A DNA stretch of 64,000 bases. Origin: an uncultured Alphaproteobacteria bacterium (GTDB taxonomy: Bacteria > Pseudomonadota > Alphaproteobacteria > CAAHEQ01 > UBA3637). This document shows, in pieces, positions 60,001 through 63,000 of the stretch. The stretch spans positions 6,525 to 70,524 of the forward strand of contig CALXVS010000002.1 of the NCBI GenBank assembly GCA_944392145.1, read 5' to 3'. Positions within the stretch are counted from its first letter, which is position 1, and the number at the start of each line of letters is the position of its first letter. A program made the position numbers.

Positions 60001-63000
60001 AAAAGCGACGTGATTGGCGCCGACGGATTAAAGAAAAGCGCCGTGCACGGCAACAATTAGTAGAACAAGGAAATGCCCCTTTGCCGGTTCCGACTGAAGA
60101 GGAGCATTTTACCGTGGTTTCTCAAGAAACCGTAGCGGCATTTGAAGAAGCCCATTCGGCACCGAAAACATCTTTGCTGCCGGAACAGGAAAAGATTTAT
60201 AAAGAACAAGAAGAAAAAGGTGCCGTGCCGAAACGTTCTACACGTCGGCGGTCTGATACACATCAGTCTCAAGAGGCTGTCGTGCAGCAGGAAACCAAGA
60301 TATCTGAACAATCGTCCGATACGGTCATGCAATCAGAAGAAACGGCATCTGCCGCCGTAAATACACCCAAGCGAACAGGATGGTGGAATCGCTTGGTCAA
60401 ATAAGGTGACTTTTTAAGTGAAAAGTCCGGTGTTTATTCAAATGCCGGACTTTTTTATTTTAAAGATTGATAAAAAAACAAAACAAGATATACTAAAAAT
60501 GTTATGTGCAATGTTTAAATCAAGGGAGTTTTTTTATGGCATTACATTTAAAAGAAAAATTAGCTGTTGCAACTTTAGCGGCAGCTTCTTTATTCGGGGG
60601 GGGATAAATCAAGCACAAGCCGATGAGGTTCCGGCGAAACAAGATACAATAACGCTTTCTGGAAAAGTAACACCGTCCCAATTGAATGCGCCACGAGACC
60701 TGTTATCGCGTTTGGGTGTGGAAAAAGCATCAACAATGACCGAAGTCGATTTATGTAAACGTGTTCAAACTGCTGACGGTAAAACTGTTCTTTCCCCCGT
60801 TGAATTGGTGACTCAACTGCAAAAATTTTTAAGCGGACAAGATATTAAAAGGGGATTGATGGGGAACCAATTTGCCGTATATCAATTGGATAAACAAGGA
60901 AAACGAATCCCGAATCAACCGTTAAGAAGAATCGGTTTAAAAGATTATGCCTAAAGTATTAAAACAGGGGCACCTATGTCTGCTGATGCGGCTGAAATTT
61001 TTACGGCCCAAGTAAACCGTTTATGGGACGGAGCCAAAAAAGCTTCTTTGGATCGGCTTCACAGAGAAAGCCGTTCGTAGCAAACCGATTTAAAAAATCC
61101 CCCGAAAAGGGGGATTTTTTTAATTACGCTTTTTTTTCATGTTTACAAGTGCTTCATTTTTCAAACACAGGATATGATAAGTTCCTTTGACGTTCTTGAC
61201 ACCGTGTGTATCATGTATGAATCCGGGAAAACAACGATCAAAAGATTCAAGCGCTTTTAAATAGGTCAAAAGCGGACCATCGGCGGCGCCGGCGTTTTCC
61301 CCAGGCATCAATAACGGAATGCCCGGCGGATAGGGAACGACACCCGTTGCAACCGTTCGGCCGGCCATATCTTTTAACGGTAAAGATTCAACTTGATTTA
61401 ACACAAGTGCTTCATACGCTTCAACAGGAGTTAAATCCGGATGCGGCAATGTTGAAAATGCGGCGGAAAGGGATCGGGTTGTCCCTAATTCTGACATTTT
61501 GCAAAATAAGGAATCGCACAAATCTTTTAACCCCATTTGGGCGTAATAAGTCGGATAGGAATTGACTAAATCGGGCAAAACATGTTCTAAGGGCGTATTA
61601 TTGGCATAGTCTTGCTTAAACTCAAATAATGCATTCAGTAAAGTTCCCCACTTGCCTTTGGTTACCCCCAGTGAGAATAAAAACAAAACGGTAAAATCGG
61701 CGGTTTTTTCAACAACAATTCCTTTATTATCCAAATAAGCGGTTAAAATAACCGCCGGGATGCCGGTTGTATCCAAACTGCCATCCGCACGAACACCGGG
61801 TGTAATAACCGATACCTTAATGGGGTCCAACATACAATAATCTGTTTCAATATCACCGAATCCGTGCCACTCTTCATTTGGTTTTAATGTCCAACAATCG
61901 GGGTCAGTGCAAAGGCGTTCTTCGGGAACCTCATAAAACAAAACATCCGCTCCTGTCGCGGGATCTTGAACGGTTTCAGGTTGCCAAACATTGAAAAACC
62001 AGTCATTTTTTGCTTTATATTCCGCATTCAGCCGTGCTACGGTGCGGCGGAAAGAAACAGCTTCTTTAATGGAATCGTCGGTTAGGGCTTTTCCACCAGC
62101 ACCGGCCATCATGGCTGCGCTGATATCATTTGAAGCAATGATTGGGTAAAACGGCGATGTTGACGCATGCATCATAAACGCTTCATTAAACCGGTCAAAA
62201 TGAATGGGATTTCGTCCATAGCGCACATGAATCATAGAGGCTTGCGAAAAAGCAGCTAATAGTTTATGCGTTGATTGTGTTGCAAAGACGCTGGGACACT
62301 TTGATTTATATGTTTTGGGATCCCCACACATGGCGAACCTGTTCTTATATAAAGGATTAAAGCGTGCGTATCCATACCAAGCCTCGTCAAAATGCAATCT
62401 GTCTACACTTTGACCCAACAATTCGCTGACACGGACAACATTATAACACAATCCGTCGTAAGTTGAATTGGTAATAATGGCATGCTTTGGATCGGGATCA
62501 AAGGCATCGGCTGAAAGCGGATTATCCTGAATGGCTTTTTGAACCGCCGCGGCCTTAAGGCGTTCAGGGAAAATCGGACCGATAATACCATACCGGTTGC
62601 GGGACGGAATTAAATACGTCGGCACGGCGCCGGACATTGTCATGGCATGCTCAACCGATTTGTGGCAATTGCGGTCGCACAAGGCGATTTGCCCGCGTGT
62701 CACACTGGCCATCAGAATAACACGGTTTGATGTTGAAGACCCGTTCGTGACAAAATAAGTGCGATCCGCACCAAAAACTTCTGCCGCATAGCGTTCGCTT
62801 TCACCGATCGGACCGGAATGATCCAAAAGGGAACCTAATTCACCGACGGAAATAGACAGATCAGACCGAAAGACCGGTTCTTTAAAAAAGTTAAAAAAGG
62901 CCCGTCCCGCTGGTGATTTTAAAAATGCTGTGCCGCCGGTATGTCCCGGTGTATGCCATGAATATTCATGAATTTTAGCAAATTCGGCCAATGCCTTAAA

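What the first reader, a model, noticed from the sequence alone, without database searches (positions are those of the whole stretch)
60536..60954. Secreted-protein gene split by a G8 homopolymer tract: candidate slipped-strand phase-variation switch
Immediately after the rne terminator there is a good RBS (gggag + 7 nt) and ATG at 60536. It encodes a textbook signal peptide (MALHLKEKLAVATLAAASLFGGG) ending in an 8-G run (60596-60603). With 8 G the frame hits TAA at 60605. With 9 G (or 6 G) it continues seamlessly into INQAQA|DEVPAKQ... (AXA signal-peptidase site) and a ~117 aa mature domain ending at 60954. The annotated 60418 start is inside the rne terminator hairpin and encodes no signal peptide, so the tract really does sit between signal peptide and mature domain. 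That is the typical arrangement for ON/OFF phase-variable surface or secreted proteins. Other G7 tracts in this window (lgt, the asmA-like gene, amiC) are all in frame, which makes the out-of-frame G8 stand out.
Basis: seen in the sequence. Interest (0 to 1): 0.7.

Follow-up and report, generated by a model that had tools for sequence, protein, structure and literature searches.

The report
Poly-G on/off switch in secreted-protein gene
A run of eight G's cuts a small secreted-protein gene of an uncultured gut-type alphaproteobacterium into a signal peptide and an out-of-frame body, and the same gene in other wild samples carries 6 (intact), 7 or 8 G's, so this is a real, naturally variable frameshift switch of a well-known kind rather than an error.

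Summary
ATG 60536, behind SD GGGAG, opens a signal-peptide ORF that runs into G8 (60596-60603) and stops at TAA 60605. The mature domain (60604-60954) lies in the -1 frame.

I compared 25 conspecific metagenome loci, all under 1% divergent. The tract is G6 in 3, G7 in 14 and G8 in 8, plus the window. G6 gives an intact 138-aa preprotein. G7 and G8 give 29-aa and 23-aa stubs.

At least 4 independent length changes map on the flank tree. Identical mature proteins occur with G6 and with G7. The only other indel in 5.4 kb is one T-run change.

An in-frame G8 in yhdP and G7 tracts in amiC never vary, even in the same samples, which argues against an assembly artefact.

Codon usage switches frame exactly at the tract. 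The annotated upstream extension (170/178 aa) looks non-coding.

The protein is a species-level ORFan with no family, fold or orthologue in the nearest genomes.

This is a new member of a known kind: poly-G slipped-strand phase variation inside signal-peptide coding, as in Neisseria pilC. Switching rate, reversibility, secretion and function were not shown. OFF alleles dominate, G9 was never seen, and pN/pS is raised, so slow recurrent inactivation remains a live rival.

The parts
60420..60455 (+). rne intrinsic terminator hairpin with T-tail. The spurious long-ORF starts (GTG 60418, ATG 60442) lie in it.
   Evidence: terminator scan (16-pair stem, T-rich tail); sequence.
60467..60494 (+). Predicted sigma-70-type promoter, TTGATA-16 nt-TATACT (10 of 12), belonging to the gene itself.
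   Evidence: Both hexamers are identical in all 21 loci then held. This is a consensus match only, with no expression data.
60524..60528 (+). Shine-Dalgarno GGGAG, 7 nt upstream of the ATG.
   Evidence: invariant in all loci.
60536..60595 (+). Signal-peptide coding: n-region MALHLKEK and h-region LAVATLAAASLF.
   Evidence: Codon-usage score is +0.61 in this frame against -1.15 and -0.65 in the other two. The only SNP here is synonymous in this frame.
60596..60603 (+). Poly-G tract (G8 here), encoding the Gly-Gly(-Gly) of the signal-peptide c-region. This is the frameshift switch.
   Evidence: G6 x3, G7 x14, G8 x9 among the window plus 25 loci. At least 4 independent changes.
60605..60607 (+). 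TAA that ends the signal-peptide frame in the G8 (OFF) state, giving a 23-aa product.
60604..60954 (+). c-region remainder INQAQA (cleavage predicted after AQA at 60621/60622), the 110-aa mature domain and its stop. Out of frame with the ATG in this window.
   Evidence: Codon-usage score is +0.31, within the real-gene range of 0.36 +/- 0.12. The frame is open in all 26 sequences. No family or fold match.
60976..61080 (+). 34-aa ORF downstream in the same transcription unit, GGGG 5 nt before its ATG. Possible small partner protein.
   Evidence: Called in every locus. Codon-usage score is +0.38. No family hit. Two nonsynonymous and no synonymous SNPs, so coding status is uncertain.
61098..61120 (.). 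Bidirectional intrinsic terminator (TCCCCCGAAAAGGGGG plus a T-run) shared with the convergent decarboxylase gene.

Best explanation
This is a genuine, self-contained gene for a small Sec-exported protein of unknown function. The unit runs promoter, SD, ATG 60536, signal peptide, 110-aa mature domain, 34-aa ORF, terminator. A poly-G tract encodes the glycines between the hydrophobic core of the signal peptide and the AQA cleavage site. Slipped-strand mispairing during replication changes the tract by single G's. G6 (and, predicted, G9) keeps the signal peptide and mature domain in one frame, which is ON. G7 and G8 end translation after 29 and 23 codons, which is OFF. The window carries an OFF (G8) allele. 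Shown here: the anatomy, the frame consequences, natural G6/G7/G8 polymorphism with repeated independent changes on closely related backgrounds, and the stability of control tracts. Inferred: promoter use, Sec export and cleavage, that the changes arise by replication slippage, and that they are fast and reversible enough to count as phase variation.
For: Anatomy and frames are shown. Public gene calls of the single homologous cluster come in three lengths that match three tract lengths: 170 aa for G8, 90 aa plus 29 aa for G7, and 138 aa for G6. Direct DNA reading gives G6 x3, G7 x14 and G8 x9. All loci are under 1% divergent. The tract is the only recurrent indel in 5.4 kb. Fitch parsimony on the NJ flank tree gives at least 4 changes. 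L003 (G7) and L013 (G6) encode identical mature proteins. For controls, the yhdP G8 is G8 in 8 of 8 contigs, including samples ERR10610654, ERZ16268151, ERZ17292905 and ERR10610685, where this tract is G7. The amiC G7 tracts are invariant. Codon usage is coding-like in the signal-peptide frame before the tract and in the other frame after it. The upstream extension scores -0.22, which is non-coding-like. The poly-G tract in the signal-peptide region of Neisseria pilC is an established precedent (PMC2193922; PMC13190605, both citing Jonsson et al. 1991).
Against: ON alleles are rare: 3 of 26 sequences, probably 2 independent samples. G9, the one-step ON state for this window, was not found by exact look-up. 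Within near-identical haplotype clusters the tract never differs, for example in seven G8 sequences 0-1.3 SNP/kb apart. So consensus-level switching is slower than clonal spread, or OFF is selected. The mature domain has pN/pS 0.60 against 0.12-0.13 in the flanking genes, and three times their SNP density. That fits relaxed constraint as well as diversifying selection. No read-level heterogeneity, expression or secretion data exist. No signal-peptide predictor was available, so that call rests on inspection.
Confidence: 0.68

Rival explanations
1. Recurrent one-way inactivation. The ancestral gene had a short in-frame G6. Expansions to G7 and G8 are ordinary loss-of-function mutations at a mutational hotspot, and the gene is being lost in most lineages. 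On this view it is an incipient pseudogene rather than a reversible switch.
For: OFF alleles dominate at 23 of 26. No G9 was found. The tract is stable within clonal clusters. pN/pS is raised to 0.60 and SNP density is tripled. The gene is absent from the nearest sequenced relatives.
Against: No OFF allele has any second lesion, whether a stop or another frameshift, in 116 codons. Promoter, SD and signal-peptide region are fully conserved. Ordered parsimony on the first 19 sequences favours a G8 or G7 root, with cost 3-4 against 6 for G6. On the later, larger 20-locus tree unordered Fitch parsimony puts G7 at the root. Either way G6 alleles would be derived ON states. Divergence is too low for any of this to be decisive.
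Confidence: 0.24
2. Sequencing or assembly artefact: the homopolymer length is miscalled and the true gene is intact everywhere.
For: Homopolymers are error-prone, and no reads could be inspected.
Against: Length is reproducible within haplotype clusters across independent samples and assemblers (MEGAHIT, SPAdes, Logan). Identical loci recovered from ENA and Logan assemblies agree (L013/L014, L005/L006, L016/L017, L110/L111). The equally long yhdP G8 and the amiC G7 tracts never vary in the same data sets.
Confidence: 0.03
3. Recoding: the G8 allele is expressed through programmed -1 ribosomal frameshifting on G GGG GGA next to the stop codon, or through transcriptional slippage on the G run. 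It would then not be OFF.
For: G GGG GGA UAA allows tRNA-Gly re-pairing in the -1 frame, and the product would equal the G9 protein (inference).
Against: There is no stable downstream RNA structure: -8 kcal/mol, z = +1.0 against shuffles. G7 alleles would need the opposite shift. An intact G6 allele exists, so no recoding is required. Low-level leakiness cannot be excluded.
Confidence: 0.04
4. The long annotated ORF (GTG 60418 or ATG 60442, 178 or 170 aa, no signal peptide) is the real protein and the tract is simply in frame.
For: Gene callers and public records choose it for G8 alleles (P0001, P0002).
Against: The start lies in the rne terminator, upstream of the predicted promoter, and has no SD. 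The extension has non-coding codon usage at -0.22. It is destroyed in all G6 and G7 alleles. Both SNPs in it are nonsynonymous, and one of them is synonymous in the signal-peptide frame.
Confidence: 0.01

Closest known systems
Neisseria gonorrhoeae/meningitidis pilC1/pilC2 (Jonsson et al. 1991, as cited in PMC2193922 and PMC13190605)
   Same: A poly-G tract lies inside the signal-peptide-coding region. Single-G slippage shifts the frame and turns translation of an exported protein ON or OFF.
   Different: There is no sequence or fold relationship. The protein here is a 110-aa ORFan, not a ~110-kDa PilY1-family pilus protein. The host is an uncultured alphaproteobacterium. Switching rates of 1e-2 to 1e-4 have been measured for Neisseria poly-G/C tracts in general (PMC2193922), which is not a pilC-specific figure. 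Here only between-sample polymorphism is seen.
Neisseria opa genes (CTCTT pentamer repeats in the signal-peptide-coding region; my own knowledge)
   Same: A translational ON/OFF switch placed between the start codon and the mature exported domain, in a part of the signal peptide that tolerates length change.
   Different: Pentanucleotide repeats rather than a homopolymer, a multigene family, and a known adhesin function.
Poly-G/C contingency loci of Campylobacter jejuni, Helicobacter pylori and Haemophilus influenzae (my own knowledge; Neisseria survey in PMC5084427)
   Same: Intragenic G/C homopolymers of 7-10 or more in genes for surface or secreted functions. They are out of frame in many genomes and their length varies between closely related strains.
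   Different: Those genomes hold tens of such loci and often lack mismatch repair. In this 64-kb window this is the only out-of-frame tract, and the other G7/G8 tracts are stable and in frame.

Membership tests
Simple-sequence-repeat (slipped-strand) phase-variable / contingency locus | Homopolymer or short tandem repeat inside the ORF or promoter | tested here: met
   G8 at 60596-60603, inside the signal-peptide coding region.
Simple-sequence-repeat (slipped-strand) phase-variable / contingency locus | Repeat-number changes switch between a full-length and a truncated product | tested here: met
   G6 gives 138 aa and G9 gives 139 aa (predicted). G7 gives 29 aa and G8 gives 23 aa.
Simple-sequence-repeat (slipped-strand) phase-variable / contingency locus | Repeat length polymorphic among closely related strains, independent of background | tested here: met
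   G6/G7/G8 occur in loci under 1% divergent, with at least 4 changes on the flank tree. An identical mature protein occurs with G6 and with G7. Control tracts are invariant.
Simple-sequence-repeat (slipped-strand) phase-variable / contingency locus | High-frequency, reversible switching within a clonal population (mixed lengths among reads or colonies) | not testable with these tools
   No reads or cultures were available. Consensus length is constant within near-identical clusters, which neither shows nor excludes it.
Simple-sequence-repeat (slipped-strand) phase-variable / contingency locus | Product is surface-exposed or secreted, or modifies the surface | tested here: inconclusive
   By inspection there is an n-region with 2 Lys, a 12-residue hydrophobic core, and AQA at -3/-1 followed by DE. 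No predictor was run and there are no experimental data.
Programmed -1 ribosomal frameshift site | Slippery heptamer plus a downstream stimulatory RNA structure, conserved in relatives | tested here: not met
   G GGG GGA is present, but downstream folding is no better than shuffles (z = +1.0). Relatives carry G6 or G7 instead.
PilC/PilY1 family | Sequence homology to PilY1/PilC domains | tested here: not met
   No Pfam, NCBIfam or PHROG hit. phmmer against 1.84 billion representatives finds only its own cluster and one spurious repeat hit.

The most novel reading that the evidence does not exclude
A true contingency locus in an uncultured, host-associated alphaproteobacterium, a group for which I know of few described repeat-mediated switches. 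It would have a three-state poly-G tract that is kept mostly OFF in host populations. It would control a fast-evolving, lineage-specific secreted effector, co-transcribed with a 34-aa partner, that is under diversifying selection from host or phage. It would also be readable directly from metagenome assemblies.
Probability: 0.3. Interest if true: 0.55.

Novelty: new member of a known kind. Interest (0 to 1): 0.42.

Why it matters
The mechanism is textbook, so a specialist would not be surprised. The case is useful in three ways. It documents a homopolymer ON/OFF polymorphism in an uncultured commensal-type alphaproteobacterium using public metagenome assemblies alone, with internal control tracts. 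It marks an otherwise anonymous ORFan as a probable exported, host- or phage-facing factor worth testing. It also shows that public records misannotate the locus in three different ways (170 aa, 90 aa plus 29 aa, 138 aa) purely because of tract length.

Tried and rejected
- **Orthologues in other species.** A scan of GTDB representative genomes with the repaired protein found none. A scan with RNase E returned 80 loci, the best a yak-rumen MAG at 75% identity, and none encodes the gene.
- **JGI metagenomes.** Two DNA pattern scans found nothing, so the species is absent there.
- **Function.** Pfam, NCBIfam and PHROGs gave no hit.
- **Remote homology.** phmmer against 1.84 billion proteins gave only the gene's own cluster and P0018. 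P0018 is a eukaryotic BRCA2, and its E = 2.7e-5 comes from summing four copies of a BRC repeat. The Pfam BRC model does not hit this protein, so I reject the match as spurious.
- **ON alleles on other backgrounds.** Exact look-up of G9 alleles, and of G6 alleles on the window haplotype, found none.
- **Frameshift stimulator.** No downstream structure was found.
- **Sample origin.** Accession numbers were not found in the paper library.

Full report
**Observation**

The sequence is exactly as described.
- The rne terminator hairpin lies at 60420-60455.
- A promoter-like TTGATA-16-TATACT follows at 60467-60494.
- SD GGGAG is at 60524-60528, and ATG 60536 is 7 nt further on.
- The ORF reads MALHLKEKLAVATLAAASLF, then GGG from a G8 run (60596-60603), then TAA at 60605.
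- The next 116 codons (INQAQADEVPAKQ...KDYA, ending at 60954) are open in the -1 frame.
- One added G, or two removed, joins the two parts.
- A 34-aa ORF (60976-61080) and a bidirectional terminator (61098-61113 plus a T-run) close the unit.

The yhdP/asmA-like gene has an in-frame G8 (25916-25923), not a G7.

A G8 is not unusual in this composition. Two are observed against 2.4 expected from dinucleotide shuffles. The case therefore rests on position and behaviour, not on the run itself.

**Is it one gene?**

Codon usage was scored against 29 long ORFs of the window. Real genes average 0.36 +/- 0.12 and off-frames average -0.63.

| Segment | Score |
|---|---|
| Pre-tract segment, ATG 60536 frame | +0.61 |
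| Pre-tract segment, other two frames | -1.15 and -0.65 |
| Post-tract segment, mature frame | +0.31 |
| Post-tract segment, other two frames | -0.84 and -0.75 |
| Upstream extension of the annotated 170/178-aa ORF | -0.22 |

The coding frame therefore changes at the tract. The annotated N-terminus lies in the terminator and ahead of the promoter, and it looks non-coding. The single SNP in the signal-peptide segment is synonymous there and nonsynonymous in the long-ORF frame.

**Relatives**

A search of 5.8 billion proteins found one cluster of 18 members. Its members have three lengths:
- 170 aa, the long spurious ORF;
- 90 aa, from an internal TTG start, with a separate 29-aa call upstream;
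- 138 aa, MALHLKEKLAVATLAAASLFGGINPAQADE..., the intact preprotein.

I fetched the DNA of 25 loci from ENA and Logan metagenome assemblies. The lengths correspond to G8, G7 and G6. The tally with the window is G6 x3, G7 x14 and G8 x9.

All loci share the same neighbours (amiC, rne, this gene, orf34, an Orn/Lys/Arg decarboxylase, an amino-acid permease). They differ at under 1% of sites, with 106 variable columns in 5,395.

In an alignment of 5.4 kb by 19 sequences, the tract is the only recurrent indel. The single other indel is a T7-to-T8 change in one terminator.

On an NJ tree of the flanks with the tract removed, parsimony needs at least 4 length changes. L003 (G7) and L013 (G6) encode identical mature proteins. 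G8 occurs on at least three distinct backgrounds: the window cluster, L018 and L109.

**Artefact control**

I looked up contigs through the neighbouring OprB-family protein, so the choice was blind to the tract. The in-frame yhdP G8 is G8 in 8 of 8 contigs. These include four samples in which the signal-peptide tract is G7.

The amiC G7 tracts are G7 wherever they are covered. Identical loci recovered from ENA and Logan assemblies agree on tract length. I therefore take the variation to be biological.

**What limits the phase-variation claim**

- Within near-identical haplotype clusters the consensus length never differs, for example in seven G8 sequences from six samples.
- ON alleles are only 3 of 26.
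- G9 was not found by exact look-up.
- The mature domain has pN/pS 0.60, against 0.13 for rne and 0.12 for the decarboxylase, and three times their SNP density.

These facts fit a contingency gene that is mostly kept OFF and is under diversifying or intermittently relaxed selection. They fit equally a gene undergoing recurrent inactivation at a mutational hotspot.

Some evidence weighs against simple decay. No OFF allele carries a second lesion, and the promoter, SD and signal peptide are invariant. Ordered parsimony on the first 19 sequences disfavours a G6 root, and unordered Fitch parsimony on the larger 20-locus tree puts G7 at the root. Divergence is too low for this to be decisive.

Recoding is unlikely. 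There is no downstream RNA structure (z = +1.0), and G7 alleles would need the opposite shift.

**What the protein is**

The function is unknown.
- There is no Pfam, NCBIfam or PHROG family.
- The exhaustive phmmer search found only the gene's own cluster and a spurious hit to BRC repeats of a eukaryotic BRCA2.
- The single-sequence AlphaFold2 model is weak and matches nothing in the PDB.
- The nearest species-representative genome is a yak-rumen alphaproteobacterial MAG, with RNase E 75% identical. It has unrelated genes after rne.

The gene is therefore a species-level ORFan. The signal peptide shows a Lys-containing n-region, a 12-residue hydrophobic core, a Gly-rich c-region and AQA|DE. 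I judged this by inspection only.

**Comparison with known systems**

The arrangement works like Neisseria pilC, where a poly-G tract in the signal-peptide-coding region gives translational phase variation (PMC2193922; PMC13190605, both citing Jonsson et al. 1991). It also works like the opa genes and the poly-G contingency loci of Campylobacter, Helicobacter and Haemophilus (my own knowledge).

It is not homologous to any of them. Three defining features of a repeat-mediated phase-variable locus were tested and met: the tract in the ORF, the ON/OFF frame consequence, and length polymorphism among close relatives. Exposure of the product is inferred. High-frequency reversible switching could not be tested.

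**Verdict**

It is a new member of a known kind. The interest is moderate: the organism is uncultured, the secreted protein is an ORFan, and the evidence comes cleanly from metagenomes alone.

Noticed in passing
window 25916-25923 (in yhdP/asmA-like gene 22754-26032): A second G8 run lies in frame in the conserved C-terminal part of a YhdP-family protein. It is invariant (G8) in 8 of 8 conspecific contigs.
   Followed up: yes
whole window: All 16 runs of six or more G's are on the + strand, and none appear as C runs. This holds even inside minus-strand genes, and GC skew is strong (G 14835 against C 11909). It suggests a replication-strand bias in homopolymers.
   Followed up: partly
window 60976-61080: A 34-aa ORF (MSADAAEIFTAQVNRLWDGAKKASLDRLHRESRS) lies between the gene and the terminator. 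It is called in every related locus and has gene-like codon usage (+0.38). It has no homologue, and its only two SNPs are nonsynonymous.
   Followed up: partly
window 60562-60586: A 9-bp hairpin (-13 kcal/mol, z = -2.6) sits inside the signal-peptide coding region. A U-rich stretch and then the G tract follow it, and the terminator scan flagged it. It may simply reflect GCN/AGCT codons.
   Followed up: partly
public records of this locus (P0001-P0017): The same gene is annotated as 170 aa, as 90 aa plus 29 aa, or as 138 aa, depending only on tract length. The 170-aa form (P0002) and one 90-aa form (P0003) list NCBI among their sources; the 138-aa forms list only ENA and Logan.
   Followed up: yes
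window 60760-60830 (mature residues 53-107) vs P0018: There is weak similarity (VQTADGKTVLSPVEL...) to the BRC repeats of a eukaryotic BRCA2. The E-value of 2.7e-5 arises from four repeat copies. Pfam's BRCA2 repeat model does not hit the protein, so the match is probably chance.
   Followed up: yes
window 28480-28487; L100: An intergenic A8 run about 50 nt upstream of the gene starting near 28535 is A9 in one related contig (L100) and carries a flank SNP in another.
   Followed up: no
window 38405-38413 (minus-strand sense A9): An A9 run lies directly after the start codon of a HlyD-family membrane-fusion gene (MLFKKKL...). It is in frame, next to a TetR-family gene.
   Followed up: partly
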